Shown: piece after piece, positions 8,053 through 31,514 of the stretch | Numbering within the stretch: the first letter of the stretch is position 1 | Layout: the number at the start of each line of letters is the position of its first letter | Origin: an uncultured Planctomycetaceae bacterium | GTDB lineage: Bacteria; Planctomycetota; Planctomycetia; Isosphaerales; Isosphaeraceae | Assembly: GCA_963833985.1 (NCBI GenBank) | Contig: CAWIAD010000002.1 | Span: 480,001 to 544,000 of the forward strand | Direction of reading: 5' to 3' | Length of the DNA stretch: 64,000 nucleotides | The notes under the pieces: model-generated | The model's database searches: none | What the model was told of the DNA's origin: nothing | The model's input: only the letters and a program-made list of their open reading frames with translations | Position numbers and translations under genes: made by a program

Positions 8053-8089
8053 GCGGGCAAATGGCGGGCAAATGGGTCCAACCACTTTC
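8053..8089 (+). repeat. Family A element copy 1, left end (split by ISAs1)
   Basis: GCGGGCAAATG-GCGGGCAAATGGGTCCAACCACTTTC joins to 9364 (TGGATCACGGTCGGCTC) when the IS and one TSD are removed. Confidence 0.85.
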
Positions 8090-9353
8090 CAGGGCCAATC
8101 ACAGTTAGGAGATGCCCAACTTGGTGAAGAGTTCGCCGACTCGGGCAGCGTTTCTCCTCATGGCCTCCGCGATATTGTTCGCTTGCCACGAGCGCAGCAA
8201 ACCGATGGCCAGGTTTCGGAACGCTGCCATGACCTCTGGCCCAGAGTTCTTGCGGATGCGGCTGGCATCCTCTCCCAGGGTCACGTCGCGTACGTAGTGA
8301 GACTTGTTTTCGATCGTCCAATGGCCTCGTGACCATTGAAGAAGCCGCTCAGCGCCGGCGACTGCACGCGGCACGCTCGTGATGAAATAGCGAGTCTCCG
8401 TCGTGCACTTGCCGTCGCGTTTGACAACCGACTCGATCCGACCCACCTGGCTGACACCCGGCCAGTCGAGGTAAGTATTCAGCGCGGTCGTGGCCGTCAG
8501 CGTGCGGCGCTCATGGCGGCCGTGCCCTTTGTCGATCGTCGTCGCCGTGTCCATCGCCTCAAGCCAGAGCCGGCGCTGCCGAGGGGGAAAAAGACCCGTC
8601 AGCCTGCGGGGCCATCGCCGCTTGGATGTCGGCCAGGAGCGTCGGCTGATTGTCTTTGACAACCCAGAGATAATGGCCACCGCTGTCTATGATTTGTCGA
8701 CTCAGGTCGCGCTGGCAGAACATGGCATCACCGGTGATCACGCGACCCTCCAGGACCAAGTCCAAGAGCAATTTGAGGGCGGCCTTATGCTCATTGGTCT
8801 TATCGACCCCGCCGCGCGGTACCTCGGCTTGGGCGACCGTCAGCCCTGACTCGTGCGCCACCAGCGAGAGTAGATGGACCGCCTTGCTCAGCCCATCGAA
8901 GCTGCCGCGTGCCGACTTGCCATCAAGGGCAAAAGCTTCAGGGGAACCCGTCTCGGCCGCCGGTAGTCGGCCCATCATGGCGTCGGCCCACCGAGTTAAG
9001 GCGGCCTCCAGCGCGGCTGGATCCAAGCTCATGAGCACCTTGCGGATCCCGCCGGACTTGGGAGGGCGCCGCGTGAAGCCAAGCCGGTGCATCAGCGCGA
9101 TGTCATGGTCCTGGGCCCATTGGGCGATCGCCGCATAGCTGCGGGCTCCGCACATGATGGCGCAACAGGTCAACGCCAGGATCGCTCTAAGCGGATGCTG
9201 GCGGCCATGACGGCTGCGAGGGTCCGGAATCTCGCCGAGGAAATGAAGCAAGCCTAGGAGTGGGGACGCGTCCATGCCATGGCCCTCGTTGGTGTCATCC
9301 TGAGCAACGAAGACTTAACTATCTACTCCAGGCTAAATCTGTCAATAGCCCTG
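8090..9353 (-). mobile_element. ISAs1 family insertion sequence
   Basis: Imperfect TIRs CAGGGCCAATCACAG / CTGTCAATAGCCCTG; 10-bp TSD AACCACTTTC (8080-8089, 9354-9363). Confidence 0.92.
8105..9275 (-). CDS. ISAs1 transposase in two frames joined at TTTTTCCCCC (~8583-8592)
   Basis: IPDPRSRHGRQHPL, ALDGKSARGS, ITGDAMFCQ, VKDNQP, then KGHGRHERR and RGHWTIENKSHYVRDVTLGED. Confidence 0.9.
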
Positions 9354-9510
9354 AACCACTTTCTGGATCACGGTCGGCTCAATCGTCGCATTCAGCCTCT
9401 TATCCGTAGGGTTATGGCCGAAACGGGCGACTCGACGCAAGGGCGGAATGGATGGCAGAAGGGCCACCCATTGGCGGATAGCTCAGACTGTGGGTGGTCC
9501 GGTTTTATTT
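9354..9510 (+). repeat. Family A element copy 1, remainder
   Basis: ...CACGGTCGGCTCAATCGTCGCATTCAGC...GGATGGCAGAAGGGCCACCCATTGG...CTCAGACTGTGGGTGGTCCGGTTTT. Confidence 0.9.
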
Positions 9511-9681
9511 TTCTACAAACCTGGACTGGGCCGGTTCTCGGTGCGATTCGCGGTTGGAATCGTCGATGCGAATCCCGAGGATTCTGATACGCGTCCTGGT
9601 GAGCGCTGCTTTTGCTGGCCTGCTCGCGGCTGAGCCGTCCGCCTGCGGTAGGGCACCAGGGTGAGCGATCGCCGTTCCTCT

Positions 9682-10015
9682 TTATTCAAAAATCGGCGTC
9701 AGCTTTGCCAGTGCCTCATCGACGATCGCGTCCGGAGCCTGTTCCAGCTTCTTGCCCCCGCGCGCTCAGATCGAGCGCGCGGGGTTGGTCGCAGCGTATG
9801 ATGCCAATCGTTTTCGTCCCCGCGCCCTCCAGCTTCACCGCAAAACCTGCCGTCCGCGCGAAATTACCGCCGCTGGTGATCGGCAGCACAACGGGCACCT
9901 TCGTCACGCGGTTGAACGCCTCTGGCGACACGATCAGCACCGGTCGCCGCCCTCGCTGCTCGTGTCCCTGCGTGGGATCAAGCTCGACCAGCCAGATTTC
10001 GCCCCGCTTCATCAA
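9682..10015 (-). CDS. pemK: PemK/MazF family toxin (1-nt frameshift near 9758)
   Basis: RGEIWLVELDPTQGHEQRGRRPVLIVS...PITSGGNFARTAGFAV...RCDQPR; the expected C-terminus GKKLEQAPDAIVDEALAKL continues in another frame to a stop at 9682. Confidence 0.88.
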
Positions 10016-10269
10016 ATCAGCTCACTGCCGACAGGTCCGGTGTCGAGCCATTCGCGGTCTTCCTTGCCGCGCGGCGCCTTCGCGTTGCATTGGGCCAGGA
10101 GCTCGTCGAGCGTATAGTGCGGCCGCTCCTGAGGTTCGACGACCAGCCGCCCCCCTTGCACCGCCAGGCCTACCTTCGCTCCCGCCCGCAAGTGCAAGAT
10201 GTCGAGCAGTGCGGGCGGCACGGCCAGCATGATCGAGCCCCCGACCTTACGCAGATTTGTTATGTGCAT
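10012..10269 (-). CDS. pemI: PemI/MazE (AbrB-fold) antitoxin
   Basis: MHITNLRKVGGSIMLAVPPALL...YTLDELLAQC...EWLD...GSELI; overlaps pemK. Confidence 0.92.
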   Translation of the reverse strand: MHITNLRKVGGSIMLAVPPALLDILHLRAGAKVGLAVQGGRLVVEPQERPHYTLDELLAQCNAKAPRGKEDREWLDTGPVGSELI

Positions 10270-10280
10270 GACCCACTCCT

Positions 10281-10307
10281 GAAAGTTATACTCCAATATA
10301 ACCTTTC
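10281..10307. promoter_or_regulatory. Palindromic operator (pem-box-like) upstream of pemI
   Basis: GAAAGTTATA-CTCCAA-TATAACCTTTC inverted repeat 12-38 bp upstream of the start codon; AT-rich in a GC-rich background. Confidence 0.7.
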
Positions 10308-10498
10308 TCGGAGAGGATTCCAACCCCCCCTCGCTGGTCTGCCCATGGACAGGACCGCATCCGACAGCGAAATGGTCTTGATGACGATTCCATCGTCGCA
10401 GCACCCCAACGGGCGAGAGGAAGGAGCCGAGTGCGGACTGCCCTACGCCCCGCACTGGCCTCAACCGGCTGGCGGCGCCCTTGCTGGCCGGCAAACGG

Positions 10499-10560
10499 CG
10501 GATGGCAGAAGGGCCACCCATTGACTGATATCTCGGACCGTGGGTGGCCCCGTCTTATTT
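10499..10560 (+). repeat. Family A element copy 2 (right-hand hairpin only)
   Basis: GGATGGCAGAAGGGCCACCCATTGACTGATATCTCGGACCGTGGGTGGCCCCGTCTTATTT. Confidence 0.9.
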
Positions 10561-10662
10561 CCGTGCACCAGGCATTAGGTTAGACTGATTGCTTGGGCGT
10601 CTTGGACAGATGTCCGCCTGCCTCATTCTCGTTCGGCCCGCGTTCTTACGGGAGGCTACTCA

Positions 10663-11798
10663 TATGTGCTCACTTCGGCACCTCGTGATGCTGGCCGCTG
10701 TGGTTACTTGCGGGATTGGCACCATTTTCTCCGTCGATCGGATTTACCGACCGATCGCGCGAATCGACCCGTCACCGGAGCCGACGCAGTTCGCCGGTTC
10801 GCCCCGAGAGTCGATTGTCCCCGTGGAGGCGCTCGTCGACGTTCGCAAAGCCGAGCAGAGCCGGCGAGCAGTACGGCCCGCCGGCGATCCAAAGCGGGAG
10901 GACGGCCTGAACTACGAGAGAGTGTTGAAGGGAGAGGAGGGCGGCACGTTGCTGCCCAAACCCGCCGAGCCCATGCCGCCGACCTACTGCCGTTCAATCG
11001 AAACGCGCCCCGAAACACACCAACGAGACGGCGGGACTGTACGGTGTCCACCGCAGCACTGTCCACTTATTCGAGAACAAGTCAGGTTTCGGGTTCACAC
11101 GAATGTTTTGGTTCACGAATGACCGCGGCGGTGAGGTCGCATCACGAGACATTGACCGTGTCGAACTGGTCAGCCTGCTGACCGACGACGAGCCTTCGGT
11201 GTACGTGCTCGACGAGATGGCGACGCCGGCGCTCGCCCGGCAAGCGAAACGCCGGCCGCTCGACGAGTTCGAGCGCCGCGGCCTCGACGCCGTGCGCCGC
11301 GGCGAGGAACTGGTGTGGACCCGGGAGGCTCCGACGCGGATGTTCGGCGCGATCTGCGCGAAGGCGCCTTGTCTACACTGTCACGCGAACGCCAAGGAGG
11401 GCGACCTGCTTGGCGCGTTCACGTACTATCTGAAGGTCCCAGTCGATCGGCTGAACATTCGCGAATTAGGCGGCGAACGTCTCCTCGAGCCCGACCCGGA
11501 AACGAAGCTCATCCGGGACCGGCTCGAAGACAAGCTCGACCTGAGATTCGAAAAGACATCATTGGAAGATGTGCTCGAGCTCATCAAATCCGCGACTCGC
11601 AGGGGCCCGAACAATCCCGGCATCCCGATCTATGTGGACCCCATGGGCCTCCTGGAGGCCGAGAAGACACTCGCGACGCCGGTCTCGTTTACCGCGAAGG
11701 GGGAGCCGTTGAAATCGTCGCTGGAGCGGCTGTTGAAATCGATGAGCCTGACCTATGCGGTCAAGGATGGGTTCCTGATGGTCACATCGCGAGACTGA
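10663..11798 (+). CDS. Exported protein with a CxxCH heme-c motif and a C-terminal STN-like domain (frameshift ~11085)
   Basis: Signal-like N-terminus; VELVSLL...RMFGAICAKAPCLHCH...GDLLGAFTY; C-terminal LDLRFEKTSLEDVL...IPIYVDP...LTYAVKDGFLMVTS. Confidence 0.6.
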
Positions 11799-11825
11799 AC
11801 CGGGACCGTCACTGGGATGCCATGG

Positions 11826-12078
11826 GCGGCAAATGGGACAGGCGGCAAATCGGAAAATGGCGGCAAATGGGCCACTCGCATGGCGGCAAATGGGGCCACC
11901 CGCATTCTGGCTCACGGTCGGCTCAACCGTCGCATTCAGCGACATATTGGCAGCGCCACCGCCGAAATTGGCGACTCGACGCAAAGCCGAATGGATGGTA
12001 GAAGGGCCACCCATTGGATGGCAGAAGGGCCACCCATTGGCTGATATCTCAGACTGTGGGTGGCCCCATTTTCTTTTC
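11826..12078 (+). repeat. Family A element copy 3 with stuttered left end and duplicated middle box
   Basis: Four GGCGGCAAAT starts (11826-11903); GGATGG(T/C)AGAAGGGCCACCCATT twice; ends TGGGTGGCCCCATTTT. Confidence 0.92.
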
Positions 12079-12101: not shown

Positions 12102-12740
12102 TCAGGCGCCGTGCATCGAGGCCAGGCCAGGCCTCTCCGCAACCTTTCCCCTGCGGCCGAGGACGACACGGGCGGCGAGGAGTGCACCTCCGAGTCCCAG
12201 GCCCAGCAGGATCCCGCTGGGGGGTTCGGGGACGGTGGAGAAATAGACGCCCGTCGCGGAGGTCTGGGTCATCATGATGACCCCGCCGCTGGTGGTGATC
12301 GGCCCCGTGTCGAAGGCCGAGACCGTGGCGACCGTCGGCGGTGTCACATCGGGCAGAAGATAGGTCGAGAAGGCAGGCGCCGTGAGGTCGATCAGGTCGG
12401 TCTGCGTCGTGACGTCGCGGAGACCGATCGTCGAGAGCGAGGGCGTCTGGAACAGGACGAGAGTGTCCGTGATCGAGGCGTTCAGCACGCCAGCAATCGA
12501 CAGGTTGGGGTCCGTGATCTTCATCGAGTAGACCTTGGCCCCGAATTCCTCCGTGATCGTGGGAGTCTGGGTCGGATCATAATTGAACGTGAGCTCAGTC
12601 AAGGCATTCTCAAACGTTCCCGGATCCAGCTTCGTGCCCCAGGAGTAATAACTGAACCCGGCGTGTATGCCGGCCAGGCAAGGTGCGGACCACACCAGCC
12701 AGATCAGCATCGACGAGATGAGCATTCGCTTCATCTTCAA
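12102..12740 (-). CDS. PEP-CTERM sorting domain protein
   Basis: Signal peptide, Thr/Ser-rich body, VPEPPSGILLGLGLGGALLAARVVLGRR tail. Confidence 0.9.
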   Translation of the reverse strand: MKMKRMLISSMLIWLVWSAPCLAGIHAGFSYYSWGTKLDPGTFENALTELTFNYDPTQTPTITEEFGAKVYSMKITDPNLSIAGVLNASITDTLVLFQTPSLSTIGLRDVTTQTDLIDLTAPAFSTYLLPDVTPPTVATVSAFDTGPITTSGGVIMMTQTSATGVYFSTVPEPPSGILLGLGLGGALLAARVVLGRRGKVAERPGLASMHGA

Positions 12741-13030: not shown

Positions 13031-13222
13031 GGAAGGCAAATGGGCAAATGGTGGGCAAATGGGGCTACCCACCTTCTGGCTCACGGTCGGCTCGATCGTT
13101 GCATTCAGCGACTTATCGGCAGTATCATCGCCGAAACTGGCGACATGACGCAAAGCGGAACGGATGGCAGAAAGGCCGCCCATTGGCTGATAGCTTGGAC
13201 TGTGGGTGGCCCCGTTTTGTTT
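13031..13222 (+). repeat. Family A element copy 4
   Basis: GGCAAATG three times, then GGGCTACCCACCTTCTGGCTCACGG...TGTGGGTGGCCCCGTTTTGTTT. Confidence 0.92.
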
Positions 13223-13328: not shown

Positions 13329-14477
13329 ATGGCCGGACCGGTGCGAAAGAGGTTCGTGCTCAGCCTTCGGAGCGCGATGCTTCTCGTCCTCTTAAGCGGG
13401 ATGTGGATGGGCTGGAGAGTCAATCGTGCGAACGATCAACGGTGGGCCGTGACCGCGATCCTGCGGGCTCGCGGCAGCATCAGCTACGATTATCAGTTCT
13501 CGGTATCGAGGGGTTATCGTCGTCTGAGTGCACGGCCTTCGGCCCCGGCCTGGCTCCGGAAGTGGCTGGGCGATGAATTTTTCCAGGAGGTAACCTCGGT
13601 CCAGTTTATCAACCGGCCTGTGACGGACCTCGACTTGGCCCCGCTCGCGAGTCTCGACCGCCTTGAGGAGTTCCACATCTCGGGAGCCCCGATCACGGAC
13701 GCCGGGCTGAAGCACCTCGCGAATTTGAAAGCGCTACGCATCCTCTCGCTCTGGGAGACACCCGGTATTACCGACGCCGGCCTCGCATACCTGAGTTCCC
13801 TGACGAATCTGCAACACTTGAACCTCTACCGTTGCGAAATAACCGACGCCGGTTTGGTCCACCTCCGCACGATGGACAACCTCGAGACGCTCGACCTCGC
13901 CAAGACCGGGGTCACGGGCCCCGGCTTATCGCAACTGGGTCGAATGTCCAAGCTCAAGAAGTTATTTACGCCCACGAACAGCGCCGGCTTGACGCACATC
14001 GGCCGCCTGCACGGGCTTCAAGAACTTTGTGCGTATCAACCCCGAAAGCCGATCCCGGGCGACGGCCTGGCGCACCTGGCCAACCTGAAGAGTTTGAGGG
14101 TCCTGCAACTGGGAGACAATCTCTGCTCCGACACCGGGCTGGCCACGCTTTCAGGACTGAGCGGCCTGACTCAACTGGGTATCGGCGGAGAACAGGTGAC
14201 CGACGCCGGGATGAACCATCTCGCCAAACTCAAAGGGCTCCAGGAACTGACCGTAGACGAATCGAGAGTCACCGGCGCTGGATTGGCGGTCCTTCTGGAC
14301 CTGCCAAGCCTGACATCCCTGGATCTCCAGGACTCCGCGGGGGTGGGAGACAGCGGGGTCGAGCCGCTCAGAAAAATGACCGGCCTTCAAATCCTCGGGC
14401 TCGTCGGCACGACGGTGAGCGACGACGGGATGACGGTGATTCGCCAGGCCCTGCCGATGGCCAGGGTAGTTCGCTGA
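13329..14477 (+). CDS. Leucine-rich repeat protein (planctomycete type, N-terminal TM)
   Basis: SLRSAMLLVLL TM, PAWLRKWLGDEFF, and multiple LxxLxxLxxLxLxxxxITDAGL repeats. Confidence 0.92.
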   Translation: MAGPVRKRFVLSLRSAMLLVLLSGMWMGWRVNRANDQRWAVTAILRARGSISYDYQFSVSRGYRRLSARPSAPAWLRKWLGDEFFQEVTSVQFINRPVTDLDLAPLASLDRLEEFHISGAPITDAGLKHLANLKALRILSLWETPGITDAGLAYLSSLTNLQHLNLYRCEITDAGLVHLRTMDNLETLDLAKTGVTGPGLSQLGRMSKLKKLFTPTNSAGLTHIGRLHGLQELCAYQPRKPIPGDGLAHLANLKSLRVLQLGDNLCSDTGLATLSGLSGLTQLGIGGEQVTDAGMNHLAKLKGLQELTVDESRVTGAGLAVLLDLPSLTSLDLQDSAGVGDSGVEPLRKMTGLQILGLVGTTVSDDGMTVIRQALPMARVVR

Positions 14478-14673: not shown

Positions 14674-15126
14674 CTAATGGACTCCATAGAGGGGCACGCC
14701 AACCGCCTGGGCGGCGGCTTTCAGCTTTTCATCAAGGGTTGCCAGCGGTAGACCTCGCCGCATGGCCAATTCCAGGTAGGCGGCGTCATAAGCCGAAAGA
14801 TGGTGCTCGCGGGCAACGCTCAACGTATTCCCGAACGCATGGACCTTGGTTTCGTCATCGACGGTGATGGGCAGCAAGGATAGAAAGCCAAGCCAAGTGA
14901 CCGTATTGGTCTGGGTTGAGCGCTTGCGGCGTTCTCCGACCAGCAGGGTGTTGGCCACCTCAAGATGCCAGAGATCGGGCACAAAAGCCTGCTCCGAAGC
15001 CAGTGCGTCAAGTGCGCTCTGCGAGTATTGGTCCTGTTCGTCGGGGAAGCACCACGCTATGGAAACCGAACTGTCGATCACCAGCCCTTCCTTGGCCGGC
15101 GTGACGGCACTTCTCTTCCGACTCAA
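14674..15126 (-). CDS. vapC: VapC PIN-domain toxin
   Basis: LVIDSSVSIAWCFPDE...LWHLEVANTL...LSAYDAAYLELA...LATLD. Confidence 0.92.
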   Translation of the reverse strand: MSRKRSAVTPAKEGLVIDSSVSIAWCFPDEQDQYSQSALDALASEQAFVPDLWHLEVANTLLVGERRKRSTQTNTVTWLGFLSLLPITVDDETKVHAFGNTLSVAREHHLSAYDAAYLELAMRRGLPLATLDEKLKAAAQAVGVPLYGVH

Positions 15127-15377
15127 GGCCGTCCCTCCTCAATCATCTCCTTGATTTCGCGGGCGGTCAGAGGACCGTGCTTGCGGGCATGCTTTTGGCT
15201 GTAGGCCCGGAACTCAGCGATTACGGCGGAAATGTCCTGCTTGGCTACCGCCTGGGCAGGAGACAGGATCGCGATGGGCTTGCCGCGTTTGGTGATCGTG
15301 ATCGTTTCGCCCTTCTCGACCTGGCTGAGAAGCCGGGGCAGGTGTGTCTTGGCTTCGTAGCTGCCGACGGATTTCAT
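15123..15377 (-). CDS. Phd/YefM family antitoxin
   Basis: VGSYEAKTHLPRLLSQVEKGETITITKRGKPIA...EIKEMIEEGR. Confidence 0.92.
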   Translation of the reverse strand: MKSVGSYEAKTHLPRLLSQVEKGETITITKRGKPIAILSPAQAVAKQDISAVIAEFRAYSQKHARKHGPLTAREIKEMIEEGRP

Positions 15378-15607
15378 TTTGTACCCTCAATGCATGAACT
15401 GGTCTAATTCACCTAGTCTAACCAACTTTACCGATCTTGCCAAGTAGGCTTTTTGTCCGGTTGGGCCCGAGCATTCCACCGAATCAACATAAAGAGGATC
15501 AGGCAACCATCCGCCCGGACAAAGAGAGTACATGCAATGCAATGCAATCCATCAGACACATCGCCGGGCCCCCGGTCCGCCAGTCCCGGCGCTCGGCGCG
15601 TATGGCA

Positions 15608-15674
15608 CATGGCCACGTGCGTGAGCACGTGGTTTTCACGGGCGCAGCCCCCAACCTCGGGCGTGAGCCCGACC
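15608..15674 (-). repeat. Family B REP-like unit (inverted copy)
   Basis: Reverse complement of the ~70-bp unit at 16262-16332 and 31017-31348. Confidence 0.85.
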
Positions 15675-15705
15675 AGAACCCGGCTGCCAGGCCTACGATC
15701 TGACT

Positions 15706-16217
15706 GATCTGAACCCGGTGGCCGCGGGCATCGCCGAGGTGCACGAGTCGAGTGCCCACACGTCGATCAAGGAATGGGTCGAGCACGTCCGGGACCAGGG
15801 TCGAGCCGAGGATCTGAAGGCTGCCGAAGCCGGCAGCGTGGCAGGGTCGCAGGCAGCGGAGGGGCTCGAAGAGGGTCTGTGGCTGTGCCGATCGAGGACC
15901 GCAGGAGGCTGGACCCGGACGCGGGTCGCGGTCGCGAGGGGATGGTCGAAGGGTTCTCGCTGGGCAGCTATCTGCTGCTGGTGGACTACACGGGGCAGCT
16001 GTATCGCGAGGGGAAGGCGGCGATCTCGGCGGAGCTGGCCGGGATCCTGGAGCGGCTGGGGAGCAATGCCGAGAGCTGGCAAGCGCGGCTGCTGAAGCTG
16101 GCCGGCGGCCGGCTGCTGGGGCGGTTCTTCGCGGCGAGCCGGGAGCGGCTGCGGGACGTGGCGGGGCGGCTGGGGCGGCATCACCTGGCGAACCTGGGCG
16201 GGTGCGCGGTGCGGTGA
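15706..16217 (+). pseudogene. RAYT-like transposase, C-terminal fragment
   Basis: DLNPVAAGIAE...HTSIKE...LWLC/PIEDRR...FSLGSYLLLVDYTG...REGKAAIS...HHLANLGGC; begins just after the expected catalytic Tyr; frameshift ~15888. Confidence 0.8.
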
Positions 16218-16261
16218 GGTGACGACGACGTCGGCGTGGGAATACGCGTGATCTGGCGATG

Positions 16262-16396
16262 TGCAGGTCGGGCGCACGCCCGAGGTTGGAGGCTGCGCCC
16301 GTGAAAACCACGTGCTGACGCACGTGGCCATGCGCCGCAGACTCCCAGGACGCTGACACACGTGGCCATAGGCCGCAGACTCCCAGGACGCTCACG
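16262..16396 (+). repeat. Family B REP-like unit plus ~37-bp tandem repeats
   Basis: GCAGGTCGGGCGCACGCCCGA...CCACGTGCTGACGCACGTGG hairpins, then CACGTGGCCAT..GCCGCAGACTCCCAGGACGCT twice. Confidence 0.85.
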
Positions 16397-16593
16397 CACG
16401 GGGTCATCCGGCCGGACTGCGGGGCGCTCGGGCACCACAGTGTGCTCGGGCATTGCGGGGCGCTCGGATCCGGTCATCCGGCCTGGACTGGGGACTGCTC
16501 GGGACCGTAGCCGTCCCCCACGGGTACCCAGTCGCTCGCGCACTGCGGGACGTTCGCGCACGCGGCTGCGCGCTCTGTACCGGTCGGAGCGAC

Positions 16594-20620: not shown

Positions 20621-20674
20621 ATGGCCGGACCGGTGCGAAAGAGGTTCGTGCTCAGCCTTCGGAGCGCGATGCTT
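20621..20674 (+). pseudogene. Truncated duplicate of the LRR gene (first 18 codons)
   Basis: 20515-20674 nearly matches 13223-13382 (MAGPVRKRFVLSLRSAML), then is cut by IS3. Confidence 0.85.
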
Positions 20675-24531: not shown

Positions 24532-24783
24532 GATGTCCTCCTTTATGCGGCGATTGGCCGCATGGCTCGGTGTCCGCGTCGCGAGCCGAAAGAAGGTACG
24601 TTGGCAATCAATGGCAATGCATGAGTCAGGTGGGCTCAGCCCTTTCCGCGGACACAGTAGCGTCCTGAACGCTAGCGTCCAGTTTACCAGGGACGGTGCT
24701 CCCGACAAGCGTGACGTACGGGAAAGCCGAATGAGCCGGCTGCGGCTGTCTCGTGGTCGTCGCTTTCGGAGTCGCGCGGCCCC

Positions 24784-24989
24784 GGGGGCAAATGGGGCCA
24801 CCCACCTTCTGGCTCGGGGTGGCAAATGGGGCCACCCACCTTCTGGCTCACGGGCGGCTCGATCGTCGCATCCAGCGACTTATTGGCAGCGTCACCGCCG
24901 GAATTGGCCACTCGACGCAAACTGGAACGGATGGCAGAAGGGTCACCCATCGTCTGATATCTCAGACTGTGGGTGGCCCCGTTTTGTTC
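24784..24989 (+). repeat. Family A element copy 7
   Basis: About 200 bp matching copy 5 with one internal mismatch seen, including the left-end duplication. Confidence 0.93.
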
Positions 24990-24991
24990 GC

Positions 24992-25096
24992 GGATGTGGC
25001 GGCGTGGTGGCCGGATGAAGAGGTCGTGCGGCGCCGTGGGAGACTCTTTCCGCCACGCGACAGGGCGCGGCGGGCACTGCCGGTCTCGGAGGCTTG
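24992..25096 (+). pseudogene. RAYT-like internal fragment between two family A ends
   Basis: DVAAWWPDEEVVRRRGRLFPPRDRARRALPVSEA matches 28905-29010. Confidence 0.8.
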
Positions 25097-25160
25097 TGGA
25101 TGCCAGAGGAGCCAACCATTGGCTGATATCTCAGACTGTGGGCGGCCCCGTTTTGTTTCC
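25097..25160 (+). repeat. Family A copy 8 (right hairpin, fused to RAYT fragment)
   Basis: GGATGCCAGAGGAGCCAACCATTGGCTGATATCTCAGACTGTGGGCGGCCCCGTTTTGTTT. Confidence 0.88.
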
Positions 25161-25296: not shown

Positions 25297-26007
25297 TCAA
25301 GCAGCCGACACATTCCGGCGCCAGGCGTAGGCGCCGACAAGCCCGAGCAGACCGATGCCGAGTAGAGCGATGGACGAAGGCTCCGGGATTGGTCCCTGCG
25401 CGTTGCCAAACGTAACCGGCAGAACAAAACTTCCGCCGTAATAGGGTGGGCCGCCCGGACCAGGGCCAAAGGCGATCGTTCCCGTGAGCGCCCCTGGGCC
25501 ATGGAACGTACCAATGGAGTAATTAAAAGCGGAAAAATTCGTCGGTGCCAGCGTCGGGGGCGGAAACAACACAGGCGCTTTCACGGGGTTCACGTAAGGG
25601 ATGATGGGGCTGAAGGAAGAGGAATGAGTCGCGCCGACGATGCTCGCTTCGCCCCCCTGGCCAGCCGGTGGAGGGACGAACGTCCCTGAGAGAGAAATGT
25701 ACTCATATCCAAGCCCTTGGTAATTGTTGTAACCATTCTGAGCAACCAGATCCCCAGTCCCCGTGGATGTCCCGGTGATGGTAATCGAGTCGCTGAATTG
25801 CGTCACGGATTCCGTTGCGGTACCCGTAAAGAACCCATCGCCGTTCTCGAGGGGAAGGGCCGTAACCTGGATGACACCGTTGACCGCTTGAACCCCGTTC
25901 AGCGTGAACGGTATGGAGCCGGCCATCGCCGCTGACATTCCCCCGCACGTCGCCAGAATGACCAGTCCTGCCCTGGCGATCTCATAGGCTTGTGAGCACA
26001 TTTCCAT
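25297..26007 (-). CDS. PEP-CTERM sorting domain protein
   Basis: Signal peptide (AGLVILATCGGMSAAMA); IPEPSSIALLGIGLLGLVGAYAWRR tail; start uncertain. Confidence 0.88.
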   Translation of the reverse strand: MEMCSQAYEIARAGLVILATCGGMSAAMAGSIPFTLNGVQAVNGVIQVTALPLENGDGFFTGTATESVTQFSDSITITGTSTGTGDLVAQNGYNNYQGLGYEYISLSGTFVPPPAGQGGEASIVGATHSSSFSPIIPYVNPVKAPVLFPPPTLAPTNFSAFNYSIGTFHGPGALTGTIAFGPGPGGPPYYGGSFVLPVTFGNAQGPIPEPSSIALLGIGLLGLVGAYAWRRNVSAA

Positions 26008-26581
26008 CTCCTTCGCGGTTTGCAGCGTAGTTGTTGAAATGTACCGACAATTCTTGCCGACCAACGATTCGAATGAACCGTTCTCGCAAGCAGGCCTGAT
26101 GTGACGGCCAGCGTTCTGGCCGCGAGGACCCGCTGACCGTTAGTTAAGCTCGGTCGAATCACAATGTCAACGGAAAAAGAGTCAATTGCAAAAAAATCGT
26201 GTGGGAACGGCGTAATTGCAAAACTGAACATCTCTGTGTATGCAGTGATCATAAAAAGACCGGCAATGCATTCTTGACCTGGGCGGTGGGATTCGGGTGG
26301 CTTGTGCGGACCTTGCTGGGAGGTCTGCTGATGACAAATGCCCGTGCGCATCTGGTGGATCCGACCGTGACCCGCTGGTATCACTGCATCACGCGGTGCG
26401 TGCGGCGGGCGTTCCTGCTGGGGGAGGGAGGGCTCGACCGTAAAGAACGGATCGAACGGCGGTTGCAGGAACCCGCGGAGATCTTGTCCGTGGCCGTGGG
26501 CGGGTGTCAGGCGACACTAAAACTGCCCCCCCTGACGACACTAAAACTGACCCCCTCCTATACACATGACGAGGAGGGGCT

Positions 26582-27922
26582 ATGGACAAGTTGGGATCCG
26601 ATTTGGTCAACCTGCACAGTATGCAGGCGGACCAATCGGACGGAACGAGTGTCCACCTGCGAACCACGCAGGAGGATACCAGGATGCTGCAACCGGGGGT
26701 CGTGGATCGGATCCACGAACTGTCCGGCCAAGGTTTCGGGAGCAAACGGATTGCTCGTGAGTTGGGGATCTCCCGTAACTCGGTCCGCCGTTATCTCGCT
26801 GGAGCCACGGTCGGCTTTCAAGAACGTCCCGCGGCGCGTCGTCTCGACGACGGCACGCTTCGCGAAGTGCACGATCTCTACGGTACTCTTGCCGAGGGAA
26901 ACGCCGTCGTCATTCAACAGGAGCTGGCCAGTCGGGGCATCCACGTCGAGTTGCGAACCTTGCAACGAGCCGTCGTTCCTCTGAGACAGGAACAGCGCGC
27001 TGAGGCTCTGGCCACAGTCCGGTTCGAGACCCCGCCGGGTCAACAAATGCAAATCGATTTTGGTGAGAAGACCGTGCGGATCGCAGGTCAGCCCGTGAAG
27101 GTGCACTTGATGACCGCGGTCCTGGGATACTCGCGCCGGATCTATTGCCGGGCATTTCTCGCCGAACGGCAGGATGATTGGCTCGAGGGAATCGACGGGG
27201 CATTCCGACATTTTGGCGGTCTCACAGAACAGATCCTCTGTGACAACGCGTCACCCTTGGTCGTCTCCCACGACCGCCAGTCCGGTGAGGTCGTGTGGAA
27301 TCCAGGCTTCGAGGCCTTCTGCCGCGATCGTGGAGTTCTTGCCAAGGCGTGCCGTCCCCGCCGCGCGCGAACCAAAGGCAAGATCGAACGGGGCGTCGGC
27401 TACGTCAAGCATAATGCCCTGGCCGGTCGTTCATTCGTTTCCTTCGCTGAGCTGGAACGACACCTGGCAAGGTGGCAGGTTGACGTCGCCGACCAGCGGA
27501 TTCATGGCACCACCAAGGAGCGTCCGGCTGTGCGCTTCGAGCGCGATGAACGAGAGGCTCTGGGGCCTCTGCCCACACGCCCTTTGCCGACGCGGACTCG
27601 TCGGTTGAAGCGTCGCGTGAGCACAGATTGCTTCGTTGATATCGATACAATTCGATATAGCGTGCCCTATCAGCATGTTCGAGAGACCGTCGAAGTGGTC
27701 GTCAAGGAGGAAGACGTCGAGATCTGGTTGCGTGGGACCTGCATCGCCAAACACATGCGGAGCCGCGAGCCCCGCGCCTGGGTTCGCAATCCGATGCACT
27801 TCGAGGGACTGTTCCGCCGCATGAGCGGAGCACAGGCTTTGCCTCCTCCCACGCCGAGCGATAACTCCGGAACCCGCCCGTTGTCAATCTATGCCGAACT
27901 GGTGGAAGGAGGCCGCCTGTGA
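26582..27922 (+). CDS. istA: IS21 transposase IstA
   Basis: HTH IARELGISRNSVRRYL; RFETPPGQQMQIDFG; DN; KGKIER; RIHGTT. Confidence 0.95.
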   Translation: MDKLGSDLVNLHSMQADQSDGTSVHLRTTQEDTRMLQPGVVDRIHELSGQGFGSKRIARELGISRNSVRRYLAGATVGFQERPAARRLDDGTLREVHDLYGTLAEGNAVVIQQELASRGIHVELRTLQRAVVPLRQEQRAEALATVRFETPPGQQMQIDFGEKTVRIAGQPVKVHLMTAVLGYSRRIYCRAFLAERQDDWLEGIDGAFRHFGGLTEQILCDNASPLVVSHDRQSGEVVWNPGFEAFCRDRGVLAKACRPRRARTKGKIERGVGYVKHNALAGRSFVSFAELERHLARWQVDVADQRIHGTTKERPAVRFERDEREALGPLPTRPLPTRTRRLKRRVSTDCFVDIDTIRYSVPYQHVRETVEVVVKEEDVEIWLRGTCIAKHMRSREPRAWVRNPMHFEGLFRRMSGAQALPPPTPSDNSGTRPLSIYAELVEGGRL

Positions 27923-28785
27923 ACCTCCTTGTTGACCCTGATGACCCGCAAGAGGAGCGGATCCTCGCGGCGCTGAAGCGGCTCCAGTTGACTCACCTGC
28001 GTGAGTCTCTCCCCGCAGTTCTGTCCGAGGCGGCCAAGGGGAGCTGGACCTACCTGGAGTTCCTCGATCAGATCCTGCGGCGCGAGATGGACGCCAAGCA
28101 GGGCAAGCGGATCCGGATGGGGATGCAGATCGCCCACTTCCCCTGTGTCCGGACCATCGAGGCGTTTGATTTCGCGTTCCAACCGTCCGTCGACGAGCGG
28201 TTGATCCGGGAGCTGTCGACCGGCAATTTCATCGCTCATGGTGAGAACGTGTTGATATTCGGACCTCCTGGAGTAGGAAAGTCTCATCTGGCCATCGGCC
28301 TCGGCCGAAAAATCGTGGAGCAGGGTCACACGGTTCGATTCACGACGGCCACAGCGCTTTTAGCGGCCCTGGCGAAAGCCGAGACGGAAGGAGGGCTCTC
28401 TGAGAAATTGACCGAGTTCTGCAAGCCTCGCTTGTTGATCATCGACGAACTGGGCTACCTGCCCTTCGAGCGTCGGGCAGCGCACCTGTTCTTCCAGTTG
28501 GTCAACCGCCGATACGAGAAAGGGAGCCTGCTGGTCACGACGAACCAGCGGGTTTCCGAATGGGGAATCGTCTTCGGAGACGAAGTGCTGGCGACGGCAA
28601 TCTTGGATCGGTTACTCCATCACAGCCACACACTTTTGATCACGGGAGAAAGTTATCGTCTGCGGGAGAAGCGTAAGAGCGGATTGATCCGATCGCGGTT
28701 GGCGAACGCCGACCCGGAGAAGCCCCACCTGGGGCCGGAGGTGACGATCGAAAAGGGACACGAGAAGGCCAGCAAGAACCGATAA
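27919..28785 (+). CDS. istB: IS21 helper ATPase IstB
   Basis: GPPGVGKSHLA, LLIIDELGY, AILDRLLHH and GESYR. Confidence 0.95.
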   Translation: MNLLVDPDDPQEERILAALKRLQLTHLRESLPAVLSEAAKGSWTYLEFLDQILRREMDAKQGKRIRMGMQIAHFPCVRTIEAFDFAFQPSVDERLIRELSTGNFIAHGENVLIFGPPGVGKSHLAIGLGRKIVEQGHTVRFTTATALLAALAKAETEGGLSEKLTEFCKPRLLIIDELGYLPFERRAAHLFFQLVNRRYEKGSLLVTTNQRVSEWGIVFGDEVLATAILDRLLHHSHTLLITGESYRLREKRKSGLIRSRLANADPEKPHLGPEVTIEKGHEKASKNR

Positions 28786-29010
28786 CAAGGGAGCATGCTG
28801 GAAGTGGGGATCAGTACACGTCCGAGGGGGTCAGAATTAGTGTCGCCTGACAGCGGGTTCGCCATCCTCGATAACCACCTGCATCTGCTGGTGCGGCTCG
28901 ACCCGGATGTGGCGGCGGGGTGGTCGGATGAAGAGGTCGTGCGGCACTGGGAGAGGCTCTTCCCGCCCCGCGACAAGACGTGGCGGGCCCTGCCGGTGTC
29001 GGGGGCTTGG

Positions 29011-29130
29011 GGATGGCAAAAGGGCCAACCATAGGCTGATATCTCAGACTGTGGGTGGGCCTATTTTGTTTCCGTTACCGGACCTGCGATCCGACAGAAT
29101 GTGGGTGGCCCCATTGCTCCCCCTTTTGAC
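29011..29130 (+). repeat. Family A copy 9 (right hairpin fused to RAYT) plus an extra right-end footprint
   Basis: GGATGGCAAAAGGGCCAACCATAGGCTGATATCTCAGACTGTGGGTGGGCCTATTTTGTTT; TGTGGGTGGCCCCATTG near 29100. Confidence 0.85.
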
Positions 29131-29291
29131 CTGGCTGTCTACGCTTCGCAGGATGAGTTACCTCACCACCACGCAGGACTTGCTTCTGGCTGCTGGTCCG
29201 GCATTGCCAGGCGGGATTCGTACCCGCAGGGTTTCATCGAAAGGTTTCCGAGTTCGTGTCTCTTCCTGCTTTCCAGAGCTTTCCTGACGCA

Positions 29292-29339
29292 AGGACGTAG
29301 TTAGTTTGCTAAACGATCTGCGTTCCCGTTTCGGCTCCC
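29292..29339. repeat. Family C inverted-repeat element (degenerate)
   Basis: Imperfect hairpin ending CTGCGTTCCCGTTTCGGCTCC; same end at 30016-30037. Confidence 0.6.
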
Positions 29340-29345: not shown

Positions 29346-29654
29346 TTACGGCTGCCTGTGGAGCCGGGAATCCATCCAGCGCTTCAGCGACTGCTGGCTT
29401 TCGGCGGATCGACGACCCAGCAGTAGACCTTCCACGCTCACGTCCTCGTCAAGCGCGGGCCACTGAATTCCACTTCCACCCCCGATCAGCCGCCAGGCGT
29501 TTCGCTCGCTGGGCGCCGCGTGCCACAATCGCGGATACCAGGTCAGAGGCACGGTCAACGTCCGGCCATCGACAAGTTCGACAGAAAGGGCATCGTCCCG
29601 AATCTCGGCACGGCGAGCAAGGGGCGCTGCCGTCTCAGTTGTGGAAGAAGTCAT
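29346..29654 (-). CDS. DUF2442 domain protein (putative TA partner)
   Basis: LSVELVDGRTLTVPLTWYPRL...GIQWPALDEDVSVEGLL. Confidence 0.9.
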   Translation of the reverse strand: MTSSTTETAAPLARRAEIRDDALSVELVDGRTLTVPLTWYPRLWHAAPSERNAWRLIGGGSGIQWPALDEDVSVEGLLLGRRSAESQQSLKRWMDSRLHRQP

Positions 29655-29871
29655 TCCAGCTCCGGAGCAAAAGTTCCTGGTTCTCCGCGACAATGTCCAG
29701 AAGTCGCCCCAATTCCTTGCTGGAAAACCCATGGCTGCGTTCAAGCCGAACCGGGTCTAGCCAGAACTTGGCGGTGCATTCATCTCGCTCCGCGTGAATA
29801 TGCGGCGGTTCGTCACGATCCCCGGAGTAAAAGAAGAAGCGGAACGGTCCGTCGCGAAAAGCGGTCGGCAT
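29635..29871 (-). CDS. DUF4160 domain protein (putative TA partner)
   Basis: MPT...FRFFFYSGDRDEPPHIH...AKFWL...W..FF. Confidence 0.9.
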   Translation of the reverse strand: MPTAFRDGPFRFFFYSGDRDEPPHIHAERDECTAKFWLDPVRLERSHGFSSKELGRLLDIVAENQELLLRSWNDFFHN

Positions 29872-29941
29872 CGTTCGATTTTACCAGATCAAGATCATTG
29901 CTCGCATCTTCCCGGTGCAATCGGCCGAATCAAAGCGAACC

Positions 29942-30140
29942 GAGACGGGGACGGAGTGCAAACGGGGATGCAGCTCGGGGGTAGAAATGGGCGCGTCGCT
30001 CGTTCACCAAACTGATCGCGTTCCCCGTTTCGGCTCCGCGTCACCGCTTCGGCTCCGCCAAACAAAGTAATCTCCCCTGCGATCAAAGTAATATCCCCTT
30101 TGGCCTCACAAAACGTAGCGGCGATTCGCTATGTCCCCCT
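29942..30140. repeat. Family C element with stuttered ends, plus AAAGTAAT.TCCCCT repeats
   Basis: GAGACGGGGACG / AAACGGGGATGCAGCTCG / GAAATGGGCGCG...GCGTTCCCCGTTTCGGCTCCGC / TTCGGCTCCGC; AAAGTAAT(C/A)TCCCCT twice. Confidence 0.6.
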
Positions 30141-30330
30141 GGATCACGATACTTCCAGCCACGCTGCCTGAGCTGCCAGGCCTGCATCCGTCGCCACTCC
30201 CTGAGATCCATGTGGCCAGTTCTGTCAACGTCCATGCCACATTATACTAGGCATAAAGGGACGGGCAATGCATTCTTGACCCGAGCGGTGGGATCGGGTG
30301 GCCTGTGCGGATCTTGCTGAGAGGTCCGCT

Positions 30331-30983
30331 GATGACGGTTGCCCGTGCGCATGTGGTGGATTCGGCGGTCACCCGCTGGTATCACTTGGAAAAAAAATGG
30401 AAAAAAAAGGACATGGAAAAAGGAAAAAAAAGGACAGGCATTGTTGCTTGCCCCGAGACGCTTGCGAGACGGCCATGCCTGTCCCTTTCTTCTCCTTTCT
30501 TCTGTGCCCGAGGCGAGCGCCCATACGTCGATCAAGGAACGGGTGGAGCACGTTCAGGAGCAGGGGCGCGCCGAGGACCTGAAGGCCGCCGAGGCCGGCA
30601 GTGTGGCAGGATCGCAGGCGGCGGAGGGACTGGAAGAAGGGCTGTGGCTGTGCCCGATCGAGGACCGCAGGAGGCTGGACTCGGACTCGGGTCGCGGTCG
30701 CGAAGGGATGGTCGAGGGGTTCTCGCTGGGGAACTATCTGCTGCTGGTGGACTACACGGGGCGGCTGTTTCGCGAGGGGAAGGCGGCGATCTCGGCGGAG
30801 CTGGCGGGGATCCTGGAGCGGCTGGGGAGCAATGCCGAGACCTGGCAGGCGCGGCTGCTGAAGCTGGCCGGCGGTCGGCTGCTGGGGCGGTTCTTTGCGG
30901 CGAGCCGGGAACGGCTGCGGGAGATTGCGGGACGGCTGGGGCGCCATCACCTGGCGAACCTGGGCGGGTGCGCGGTGAGGTGA
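30331..30983 (+). pseudogene. RAYT-like transposase with its catalytic core replaced by a family D element
   Basis: MTVARAHVVDSAVTRWYH (to ~30386), then a ~117-bp element, then VPEASAHTSIKER...HHLANLGGCAVR*; the 5' leader matches 26255-26330. Confidence 0.88.
30387..30503. repeat. Family D inverted-repeat element with stuttered ends
   Basis: AAAAGGACAGGCAT (30428-30441) / ATGCCTGTCCCTTT (30475-30488); A-rich partial left copies; CCTTTCTTCT twice on the right. Confidence 0.8.
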
Positions 30984-31016
30984 TGACGAGGCGGTGATAC
31001 GCGTGATGCGGCGCGA

Positions 31017-31462
31017 TGCAGGTCGGGCTCACGCCCGAGGTTGGAGGCTACGCCCGTGAAAACCACGTGCTCACGCACGTGGCCATGCGTGCCAAGCGGC
31101 GGGACGTGCGGACCGGGGACCCGTCGATGGGTCTGATGCGATGCAGGTCGGGCTCACGCCCGAGGCTAGGGGCTGCGCCCGTGAAAACCACGTGCTCACG
31201 CACGTGGCCATGTGCTATGCGCCGCGGACGCCGGGGCGGGTGCAGCAGTGCCGTGGCGATGAGCGTGATGCGGCCAGGTGCAGGTCGGGCTCACGCCCAA
31301 GGTTTGGGGCTGCGCCCGTGAAAACCACGTGCTCACGCACGTGGCCATCAGCCGCGGACTCCCAGAACGCTGACCTACGTGGCCACCGCCGCGGACTCCC
31401 AGAACGCTGACTTACGTGGCCACCGCCGCGGACTCCCGGAACGGCTGACCCACGTGGCCATG
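31017..31462 (+). repeat. Cluster of three family B REP-like units plus 36-37-bp tandem repeats
   Basis: GCAGGTCGGGCTCACGCCC...GCCCGTGAAAACCACGTGCTCACGCACGTGGCCAT at 31017, 31142 and 31279; GCCGCGGACTCCC(A/G)GAACG three times. Confidence 0.9.
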
Positions 31463-31469
31463 CCCCGCC

Positions 31470-31514
31470 GGGCCGGCATCACCTGACGAACCTGGGGGGA
31501 TGCGCGGCGCACTG
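31470..31514 (+). pseudogene. Short RAYT C-terminal tail fragment
   Basis: GRHHLTNLGGCAAH* matches the RAYT end GRHHLANLGGCAVR*. Confidence 0.65.

What the first reader, a model, noticed from the sequence alone, without database searches (positions are those of the whole stretch)
8053..31514. Integron-like gene-cassette array delimited by REPIN-like elements and laced with HUH/RAYT transposase fragments
Seen: nine co-oriented copies of one element occur only in this ~23-kb stretch (8053/9354, 10499, 11826, 13031, 18832, 20345, 24784, 25097, 29011). Between them lie short unrelated modules in both orientations: pemIK; a heme-c/STN protein; PEP-CTERM; LRR plus phd-vapC; Uma2; a truncated LRR copy; ankyrin; PEP-CTERM; DUF4160/DUF2442. 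Five RAYT-like fragments are interspersed, and no tyrosine recombinase is present. Known: RAYT/TnpA-REP enzymes are Y1 HUH nucleases that cut ssDNA at REP hairpins and are linked to REPIN mobility, and TA modules stabilise integron arrays. Inference: this is a cassette-capture and shuffling platform using hairpin elements and an HUH enzyme supplied in trans instead of IntI/attC. I do not know of such a system being described.
Basis: partly seen in the sequence, partly recalled or inferred. Interest (0 to 1): 0.9.

Follow-up and report, generated by a model that had tools for sequence, protein, structure and literature searches.

The report
Mini-transposon joints between borrowed genes
In a planctomycete genome, nine same-direction copies of a miniature tyrosine-transposase (TIRtron) element form the exact joints of a patchwork of unrelated, horizontally moving gene modules, which suggests that this little-studied enzyme family cuts and splices passenger DNA, though an integron-like cassette-shuffling system is not shown.

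Summary
The array is real. Nine co-oriented copies (6 full, 3 right halves) lie in 21 kb; only 5 more occur in the 10.2-Mb genome. The element is not attC or a GTAG REPIN. It is a ~170-bp non-autonomous TIRtron whose end repeats match those around a 455-aa HUH/Y1 transposase (TnpA_Y1 subclass 2.3 motifs), intact about 40 kb away. Such ends carry partial duplications starting 9-10 nt outside the motif (25/65 and 37/88 sites vs 4.6%), pointing to nick-extend-rejoin chemistry. Homology of flanks to other loci stops within 7 bp of 10 of 13 testable element ends and never resumes across the element. Cargo modules occur in other genera at 85-92% identity, never in this order and mostly without such ends (6/46 vs 1/25). 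No IntI, no attC; four DDE IS make up 30% of the region. Best reading: a polarised mosaic spliced by one-ended HUH joining, a by-product of a selfish element; regulated cassette shuffling is unshown. The scan noted similar TIRtron rows on other DNA before.

The parts
8053..9512 (+). Element copy 1 (family-A TIR MITE), split by ISAs1
   Evidence: 10-bp target duplication on both sides of the IS
8090..9354 (-). ISAs1, 3 further near-identical full copies in the genome
9716..10269 (-). pemI-pemK toxin-antitoxin module; 9536-10491 is 89% identical to a locus in another genus that has no TIRs
10499..10560 (+). Right-half element (small TIR doublet)
10561..11823 (+). CxxCH-containing gene module, frameshifted; homologues in other genera run to both element junctions
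11824..12078 (+). Element copy with stuttered left end and internal 23-bp duplication
12102..12740 (-). PEP-CTERM protein gene
13031..13221 (+). Element copy
13329..14477 (+). LRR protein gene; module 90-91% identical in three other genomes
14674..15377 (-). phd-vapC module; 86% paralogue at C2:3027k
15512..16420 (+). RAYT-B derivative: worn left end, inverted arm repeat, 3' half of the gene (codons 178-350), arm repeats; same build at C1:2927k
16594..18435 (+). IS4-family element, 11-bp target duplication
18436..18832 (+). Repeat found downstream of RAYT-B copies, cut at the element's left end
18833..19056 (+). Element copy, stuttered at both ends; 99% identical to the 24786 copy with different flanks
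19057..19226 (+). Body and stuttered right end of a second family-A MITE type, its left end replaced by the element
19354..20103 (+). Uma2 gene; module 92% identical in a relative, homology runs to the next element's left end
20344..20674 (+). Element copy plus 160 bp of the LRR leader (98.8% identical to 13222-13382): element duplicated with its downstream flank
20673..22270 (+). IS3-family element without target duplication
22603..24825 (-). Ankyrin-repeat ORF (longest frame; probable start near 24531)
24786..24989 (+). Element copy
24990..25096 (+). RAYT-B internal piece (about codons 75-108) between two element ends
25097..25158 (+). Right-half element
25297..26064 (-). PEP-CTERM protein gene; no DNA homologue in 120 family genomes searched
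26252..29009 (+). RAYT-B left end and codons 1-109, interrupted by IS21
26505..28852 (+). IS21 (istAB); clean insertion, target resumes across it
29010..29124 (+). Right-half element followed by a family-A right end
29125..29296 (-). 5' fragment of a group II intron, cut at the family-A end
29346..29871 (-). DUF4160-DUF2442 toxin-antitoxin-like pair
30255..30983 (+). RAYT-B left end and codons 1-20, a stuttered family-B TIR doublet (30387-30504) in place of 512 bp of the gene, then codons 187-350
30990..31514 (+). RAYT-B arm repeats and a second copy of the gene tail

Best explanation
The region is a polarised mosaic spliced together by TIR-associated HUH/Y1 transposases (TIRYT type, subclass 2.3 motifs) acting in trans. 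SHOWN: the ~170-bp element has the same end motif (GGGGCCACCCAC) as the 455-aa RAYT-A gene unit; a second family (RAYT-B, 350 aa, about 13 near-full copies) uses a related end motif; both kinds of end carry partial duplications with a fixed outer start 9-10 nt outside the motif and a variable inner end; element ends are the breakpoints where unrelated DNA is joined. INFERRED: the enzyme nicks one strand about 10 nt outside a TIR and holds the 5' end; host polymerase extends the 3'-OH and displaces the strand; the held end is then joined to whatever 3'-OH is at hand. Early rejoining gives the stutters, longer run-through copies the element with its downstream flank, and joining to another site gives a one-ended junction with loss of the target's continuation. 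Repeated local rounds on one strand give a head-to-tail row of elements separated by whatever DNA was caught or left. TA modules are probably over-represented because they resist deletion (inference from TA biology). It works like ISCR/Helitron flank capture more than like an integron, and is most likely a by-product of a selfish element.
For: Shared TIRs; RAYT-A relatives in four other genomes are flanked by the same motif, with up to dozens of stutter units. HUH and YxDLNP motifs; top fold hit 4ER8 TnpA_REP then ISDra2/IS608 TnpA (E 0.01, prob 1.00, none below E 0.001). Stutters: 25 of 65 family-A and 37 of 88 family-B motifs vs 4.6% of 2,000 random sites, start peak at -9/-10; a 557-bp one at C2:3954745. 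Junctions: 10 of 13 testable element ends and 13 of 19 testable TIR ends have homology running to within -1..7 bp; in 15 of 15 TIR ends tested the homologue's continuation was not found across the element, while it was for IS21. Element plus flank duplicated inside the array. RAYT-B pieces under 15 kb apart are co-oriented 9 of 9 vs 12 of 23 for distant neighbours (p=0.013). The six full array copies group with one outside copy (92/95 support), and that copy lies in a second small co-oriented cluster with Uma2 and RAYT-B pieces. An 11-copy unknown gene lies behind the RAYT-B arm repeat in 11 of 11 copies, 3 with a full RAYT-B upstream. Chemistry precedent: Ton-Hoang 2012 Fig. 7B model and flank-capture passage.
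Against: No enzyme assay exists here for this subclass. Insertion with adjacent deletion gives the same junction pattern; the one junction readable inside a single gene type is a 512-bp deletion. Cargo homologues elsewhere mostly lack TIR-type ends (6 of 46 vs 1 of 25; strict test 4 of 38 vs 0 of 25). Three of 13 testable element ends have gaps of 23-56 bp. I set the end positions after seeing the sequences and took the closest of up to 58 homologues. Both RAYTs score below the Pfam/NCBIfam cut-offs. The element shares ends with RAYT-A yet abuts RAYT-B DNA in 5 of 14 copies, so the acting enzyme is uncertain. Array copies are not strictly one clade (12% of bootstrap trees).
Confidence: 0.5

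Rival explanations
1. Passive hot spot: an accessory island assembled by other routes was later peppered by local hops of the MITE, each with an adjacent deletion; the HUH enzyme trimmed the cargo but did not bring it.
For: Four DDE IS and a group II intron fragment landed here too. The doublet at 30387 replaces 512 bp of RAYT-B. Most cargo homologues elsewhere lack TIR ends. LRR and phd-vapC abut without an element copy. The wider region 480-555k also holds RAYT debris and a phd-vapC pair.
Against: Element-plus-flank duplication inside the array, the 557-bp duplication and the 11-copy passenger behind the RAYT-B arm show that flanking DNA does move with these ends. No two array modules were neighbours in any fetched homologous locus.
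Confidence: 0.3
2. One reading: a dedicated platform in which [element + downstream module] units excise as circles between two co-oriented nick sites and re-insert at another nick site, shuffling cassettes as integrons do.
For: Strict co-orientation; junctions at the inferred nick position; modules trimmed at both sides by element ends; TA-rich, surface-protein-rich cargo; densest TIR/arm cluster of the genome, 11 anchors in 25 kb vs at most 5 elsewhere.
Against: No module recurs with this element elsewhere; the element is found once or twice per relative in 3 relatives and once in the metagenome scan; spacers include gene fragments and a frameshifted gene; cargo in both orientations; no shared promoter-like site; no conserved locus in relatives.
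Confidence: 0.12
3. Homologous recombination between co-oriented repeat copies (element or RAYT-B pieces) swaps incoming DNA into the row; the HUH enzyme only seeded the repeats.
For: Copies are 79-99% identical; in the 13054/20346 pair the element part (94.6%) is more diverged than the shared flank (98.8%), as if converted by another copy.
Against: Does not explain fixed-start stutters or junctions at element ends inside genes; donor loci mostly lack the element.
Confidence: 0.05
4. A CALIN: an integron cassette array that lost its integrase, with atypical attC sites.
For: A row of co-oriented hairpin-forming repeats between TA-rich modules; a group II intron fragment is present.
Against: 0 of 9 copies has an RYYYAAC...GTTRRRY pair on either strand (consensus recalled); no gene reaches the TIGR02249 cut-off (best 98.9 vs 265 bits); the repeat's ends are those of a Y1 transposase unit.
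Confidence: 0.03

Closest known systems
TIRtrons / TIRYT (Di Nocera et al. 2013, PMC3733652; passages and section 16 read)
   Same: Y1 transposase gene between terminal inverted repeats unrelated to GTAG REPs; TIRs also occur alone, as dimers and in clusters.
   Different: The end motif starts GGGGCCAC, off the GGGGWSAS consensus by one base. In the parts read there is no mention of fixed-start stutters, one-ended junctions, passenger genes or polarised arrays.
TnpA_Y1 subclass 2.3 (Quentin et al. 2018, PMC6006769; sections 11, 12, 15 part 1, 31 read)
   Same: NH.H and Y[VI]DLNP motifs, long proteins with core insertions and a C-terminal tail, several diverged copies per genome.
   Different: That paper found no REP-like flanks for 2.3 and places TIRYT mostly in 2.1; here cognate TIRs, MITEs and signs of activity are seen, in a planctomycete.
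REPtron / BIME amplification by TnpA_REP (Ton-Hoang et al. 2012, PMC3333891; passages) and REPINs (Bertels and Rainey 2011, PMC3116915; passages)
   Same: HUH nick, extension and strand transfer proposed to add tandem units and to capture flanking genes or tnpA_REP fragments; inverted doublets clustered near the transposase.
   Different: No GTAG foot; 14 copies, not hundreds; inferred cut at a fixed distance from the motif with no fixed dinucleotide; the transposase gene itself is multi-copy.
TnpA_REP fragments among prochlorosin gene clusters (Laurenceau et al., bioRxiv 2020.03.09.984088; whole text read)
   Same: Full and truncated TnpA_REP copies interspersed with variable genes; diversifying recombination proposed.
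   Different: Subclass 2.1, one cargo family, no inverted repeats found; the authors' added note says causality is not established.
Integron cassette arrays and CALINs (Cury et al. 2016, PMC4889954; passages)
   Same: Co-oriented hairpin repeats between small TA-rich modules.
   Different: No IntI, no attC boxes, cargo in both orientations, repeats cut through genes.
IS91/ISCR and Helitron rolling-circle flank capture (named in the passage; otherwise recalled)
   Same: HUH chemistry; fixed start and variable end of copied DNA.
   Different: Those elements lack TIRs and use other HUH enzyme families (recalled); here both ends carry the same motif and both stutter.

Membership tests
TIRtron / TIRYT | HUH/Y1 transposase gene flanked by terminal inverted repeats that are not GTAG REPs | tested here: met
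   RAYT-A at C2:551448 and 2519136 and relatives in 4 genomes; fold hit 4ER8
TIRtron / TIRYT | GGGGWSAS motif in the TIR (majority of published cases) | tested here: not met
   Motif reads GGGGCCAC, C at the W position; the paper notes other TIR types too
TIRtron / TIRYT | TIRs also present away from the gene as singles, dimers or clusters | tested here: met
TIRtron / TIRYT | Cleavage of the TIR by the cognate enzyme | not testable with these tools
   needs biochemistry
TnpA_Y1 subclass 2.3 | NH.H and YVDLNP motifs, long protein, multiple diverged copies | tested here: met
   NHLH and Y[VI]DLNP, 350 and 455 aa, about 13 near-full family-B copies at 88-95%
TnpA_Y1 subclass 2.3 | Assignment by the published subclass profiles or tree | not tested
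   profiles not held; assignment rests on motifs and length
MITE | Short, non-coding, TIR-bounded, cognate transposase in trans | tested here: met
MITE | Clean insertion with target duplication or restorable empty site | tested here: not met
   continuation not found across the element at 15 of 15 TIR ends
REPIN (GTAG REP doublet) | Inverted doublet folding into a hairpin | tested here: met
   z = -3.9 and -2.6 on the two strands
REPIN (GTAG REP doublet) | GTAG/GTGG foot and high-copy genome-wide spread | tested here: not met
   no GTAG at the ends; 14 copies, 9 in one cluster
Integron / CALIN | IntI tyrosine recombinase | tested here: not met
   none over the TIGR02249 cut-off in the genome
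Integron / CALIN | attC sites with R'' and R' boxes | tested here: not met
   0 of 9 copies by pattern (consensus recalled; the attC covariance model was not available)
Integron / CALIN | Mostly co-oriented whole ORFs, one per site | tested here: not met
   cargo on both strands; spacers include gene fragments and two-module stretches
Integron / CALIN | Excisable circular cassettes and re-ordering | not testable with these tools
   no sequencing run was listed; no conspecific genome held
IS91/ISCR-type rolling-circle capture | Fixed start, variable end, flank carried along | tested here: inconclusive
   seen for 8-557 bp duplications and one element-plus-flank copy; multi-kb capture from distant loci only inferred

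The most novel reading that the evidence does not exclude
TIR-guided Y1 HUH transposases of subclass 2.3 run a general gene-capture system: they nick 10 nt outside a TIR, peel off the element with downstream DNA, and insert such units head-to-tail at existing TIR nick sites, so that arrays of TA, surface and repeat-protein modules are built and re-ordered as a functional analogue of integrons, and help move these modules between planctomycete genera.
Probability: 0.2. Interest if true: 0.85.

Novelty: new variant of a known kind. Interest (0 to 1): 0.5.

Why it matters
The function of the long TnpA_Y1 subclasses is an open question; subclass 2.3 was described without any recognised flanking site. 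This locus names a cognate end motif, predicts the cut position (9-10 nt outside the motif, on either end), and shows with base-level junctions that these ends are where unrelated DNA is joined. That makes the chemistry directly testable with one intact gene and a 170-bp substrate. If passenger capture holds, it would be a route, besides integrons and ISCR elements, by which TA modules and surface-protein genes are gathered and spread in Planctomycetota.

Tried and rejected
Integron/CALIN: rejected. Structured-RNA family for the element: Rfam gave only the group II intron fragment above its cut-off, 3 matches at E<=1. tRNA-anchored island: no tRNA in the window. Conserved locus with variable content: DNA downstream of GH116 orthologues in 6 of 6 relatives held no array, no family-A motif and no tetR-AKR block, so no empty site could be defined. 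Replication-strand bias as the cause of co-orientation: GC skew shows no clear replichores, and distant RAYT-B neighbours are co-oriented only 12 of 23 times. Similar arrays of this element elsewhere: exact-pattern scans gave 1 metagenome and 2 genome loci, single copies; left-TIR pattern in 5 of 120 family genomes; 13 fetched RAYT/TIR loci of relatives showed debris but no comparable row. A broader TIR class (GGTGTCAG-like pattern) showed no genome-wide stutter excess with my loose pattern (34 of 712), though single loci stutter heavily. First stutter control was biased by its length rule and was replaced. Sequence search of PDB with the RAYT-A profile found no relevant entry. TA enrichment near TIR/arm anchors genome-wide is modest (PIN 6/26, Phd 4/13, Uma2 9/60 within 3 kb vs 7.7%) and could reflect shared accessory regions. 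Literature: seven searches listed no paper on TIRtron cargo arrays or fixed-start stutters; the library lacks most subscription papers and no supplements were read.

Full report
OBSERVATION. The window lies at G000:C2:480001-544000 of a 10.16-Mb, two-contig genome. Homologue labels point to a planctomycete, probably Isosphaeraceae (a source name; inference). The repeat is real: six full copies of about 170 bp and three right halves, all on the + strand, between 8053 and 29071. Copy 1 is split by ISAs1 with a 10-bp target duplication. BLASTN of the genome finds five more copies, all far away. In 200,000 random placements of 14 copies no 21.1-kb stretch held more than four. GC is 0.62 against 0.655 on both sides. 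The listed cargo is confirmed by Pfam except the STN label.

WHAT THE ELEMENT IS. Both ends carry the inverted motif GGGGCCACCCAC, and the strand folds better than all 200 shuffles (z -3.9). The right half holds a second, internal copy of the motif and is a small doublet on its own. The same motif bounds a 455-aa gene (RAYT-A) at C2:551448, about 40 kb from the array, and a frameshifted twin at C2:2519136. Relatives of RAYT-A in four other genomes are flanked by the same motif. RAYT-A has NHLH and YVDLNP, nearly invariant or invariant in 89 homologues. Its model (pLDDT 73) finds TnpA_REP 4ER8 first and then ISDra2/IS608 TnpA, though none below E 0.001. Profile hits are below cut-off (Pfam Y1_Tnp 22 vs 23 bits for RAYT-B, none for RAYT-A; NF047646 36-40 vs 80). 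Motifs, length and copy number fit TnpA_Y1 subclass 2.3 of Quentin et al. (PMC6006769). The five RAYT pieces inside the array belong to a second family, RAYT-B (350 aa, about 13 near-full copies at 88-95%, many fragments), whose left end motif is GGACA(G/T)GCA. So the element is a non-autonomous TIRtron in the sense of Di Nocera et al. (PMC3733652), not a GTAG REPIN and not attC: 0 of 9 copies has an R''/R' pair (consensus recalled) and no gene reaches the IntI cut-off.

STUTTERED ENDS. Ends of both families are preceded by partial copies of themselves. These start at a fixed outer point and stop at variable inner points. 25 of 65 family-A motifs and 37 of 88 family-B motifs show this, against 4.6% of 2,000 random positions; starts peak at -9/-10. 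The ten bases outside the motif differ from locus to locus, so the start is set by distance. Sizes run from 8 nt to a 557-bp partial copy of a RAYT-B gene. This is what a nick, polymerase extension and rejoining of the enzyme-held 5' end would leave; Ton-Hoang et al. drew that scheme for BIMEs and noted that such units could take up flanking genes or tnpA_REP fragments (PMC3333891, passages). The nick itself is inferred.

JUNCTIONS. I compared the flanks of 25 TIR-type ends with the rest of the genome and 169 foreign loci. Six had no usable homologue. Of 19 testable ends, 13 have homology running to within -1 to 7 bp of the end; six stop 23-71 bp short. For the element itself the count is 10 of 13 testable ends (17 queried). 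Limits: I set the ends after seeing the sequences, and the closest of up to 58 homologues was taken. Any insertion cuts homology at its end, so the telling test is whether the target resumes on the far side. For 15 of 15 TIR ends it did not; for IS21 it did on both sides; IS3 did not resume, and IS4 and ISAs1 were unclear. One junction can be read inside one gene type: the family-B doublet at 30387-30504 stands in place of 512 bp of RAYT-B. Element ends cut RAYT genes, a group II intron and, at C2:5882k, another repeated gene. The copy at 20344 was duplicated together with 160 bp of the LRR leader (flank 98.8% identical, element 94.6%), and its left end meets the Uma2 module at the inferred nick. 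RAYT-B pieces under 15 kb apart are co-oriented 9 of 9 times, distant neighbours 12 of 23. The six full array copies group with the copy at C2:1452k (92/95), which sits in a smaller co-oriented cluster with Uma2, RAYT-B pieces and a half element.

CARGO. Among 120 family genomes, the pemIK segment matches another genus at 89% over almost the whole spacer; the CxxCH module at 85-92% in several genera, LRR at 90-91% in three genomes, phd-vapC up to 88%; Uma2 at 92%; ankyrin at 79-80%. GH116 next door is 74-79% identical within the genus. So most modules are recent horizontal travellers (inference). One PEP-CTERM spacer had no match; the DUF4160-DUF2442 pair matched at about 70%. In no fetched locus were two array modules neighbours. 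Against a cassette reading: homologous loci have a TIR-type end within 700 bp in 6 of 46 cases against 1 of 25 controls (p=0.41); a stricter stutter test gave 4 of 38 against 0 of 25 controls and 0 of 60 background pieces. Where ends are present they are mostly other TIR families. The G059 pemIK locus has none. LRR and phd-vapC abut with no element copy. The element is rare outside this genome: one or two full copies in three relatives, one metagenome hit and two genome hits by exact pattern. DNA downstream of GH116 in six relatives has no array. In favour of passenger transport by this enzyme class: an unknown 1.6-kb gene segment occurs in 11 copies at 92-97%, always 176-369 bp behind the RAYT-B arm repeat in the same orientation, three times behind a full RAYT-B gene; two such units 5.4 Mb apart share 2,951 bp starting at the left end. 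It could also be a separate mobile unit that RAYT-B joined.

MECHANISM AND ODDS. Most likely (0.5): repeated one-ended HUH joining events, local and on one strand, built the row, trimming and at times bringing in the modules, as a by-product of a selfish element. Next (0.3): local hops with adjacent deletions into an island made otherwise. A dedicated excise-and-shuffle platform (0.12), recombination between copies (0.05) and a CALIN (0.03) are less likely. Excision and re-ordering could not be tested: no run was listed and the collection holds one genome per species.

RELATION TO KNOWN WORK. TIRtrons, subclass 2.3, BIME amplification with flank capture, and TnpA_REP fragments among prochlorosin genes (bioRxiv 2020.03.09.984088, whole text) are in print. 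Also read as passages: PMC5581495, PMC3116915, PMC4889954, PMC8266576, bioRxiv 2021.07.10.451892 (82) and 2024.07.17.603846 (123; no circles were found from eight E. coli REP regions, with a library that should not see single-stranded circles). Seven searches listed nothing on TIRtron cargo arrays or fixed-start stutters; supplements and figures of PMC3733652 and PMC6006769 were not seen and may list such ends. The scan's own notes describe stuttered TIRtron ends and co-oriented TIRtron rows on other DNA; these are unchecked notes and are not counted as support. Verdict: new variant of a known kind, interest 0.5.

Noticed in passing
G000 C2:99171, 800850, 1693622, 1975950, 2623190, 3344946, 4162827, 6222339; C1:524504, 1294295, 2046375 (one copy in L227:2117-3721, - strand): An 11-copy gene of no Pfam family (N-terminal AANRRNA...NALRHG motif; unnamed Planctomycetota/Acidobacteriota clusters in the Atlas) always lies behind the RAYT-B arm repeat: candidate passenger of the TIRtron or an unknown mobile element.
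   Followed up: partly
window 29125-29296 (-): 5' fragment of a group II intron (RF02005) cut at a family-A TIR; homologues at C2:1024k and 4727k and in many family genomes.
   Followed up: partly
L124 (G004:C1:1040800-1045800); L118, L120, L128: RAYT genes flanked by very long stutter arrays (dozens of 20-35-bp units on each side) that could be mistaken for CRISPR arrays or tandem repeats.
   Followed up: partly
G000 C2:1449600-1453100 and C2:3032700-3041100: Two smaller co-oriented clusters of RAYT-B pieces and TIR doublets with Uma2, PIN-HTH, Phd and cytochrome c genes between them.
   Followed up: partly
window 547-1937: RAYT-B left end, a family-A end, the 3' tip of RAYT-A on the - strand and a phd-vapC pair, 6 kb left of the array.
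   Followed up: partly
L185, L187, L188, L189 (G051, G024, G066, G067): The CxxCH module occurs as head-to-tail partial duplications that restart at the same position (window 10630 equivalent), in two cases ending at a stuttered GGGGTCAG-type end.
   Followed up: no
window 15703, 30505; C1:2927607; C2:3033631, 3040555, 3201081: Several RAYT-B 3'-half fragments begin at codons 168-189, at or just past the catalytic tyrosine motif: a recurring non-autonomous form or a break hot spot.
   Followed up: no
window 18832 and 24785 left junctions: The uninterrupted homologues of both left flanks read GTCCG at the break; possible target preference or chance (two cases).
   Followed up: no
window 31570-31850: A further multi-copy intergenic repeat (hits at C1:741k, C2:3041k, 4644k and others) just right of the array, often near RAYT-B debris.
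   Followed up: no
G000 genome-wide: 62 Uma2 (PF05685) and 27 PIN matches in one genome; 6 of 60 Uma2 genes outside the array lie within 1.5 kb of a stuttered TIR (1.3% expected).
   Followed up: partly
L072:9125-9365 (G010:C15): In a relative, the element's left part is fused to a 5' fragment of a RAYT-A-like gene at a short shared stretch.
   Followed up: no
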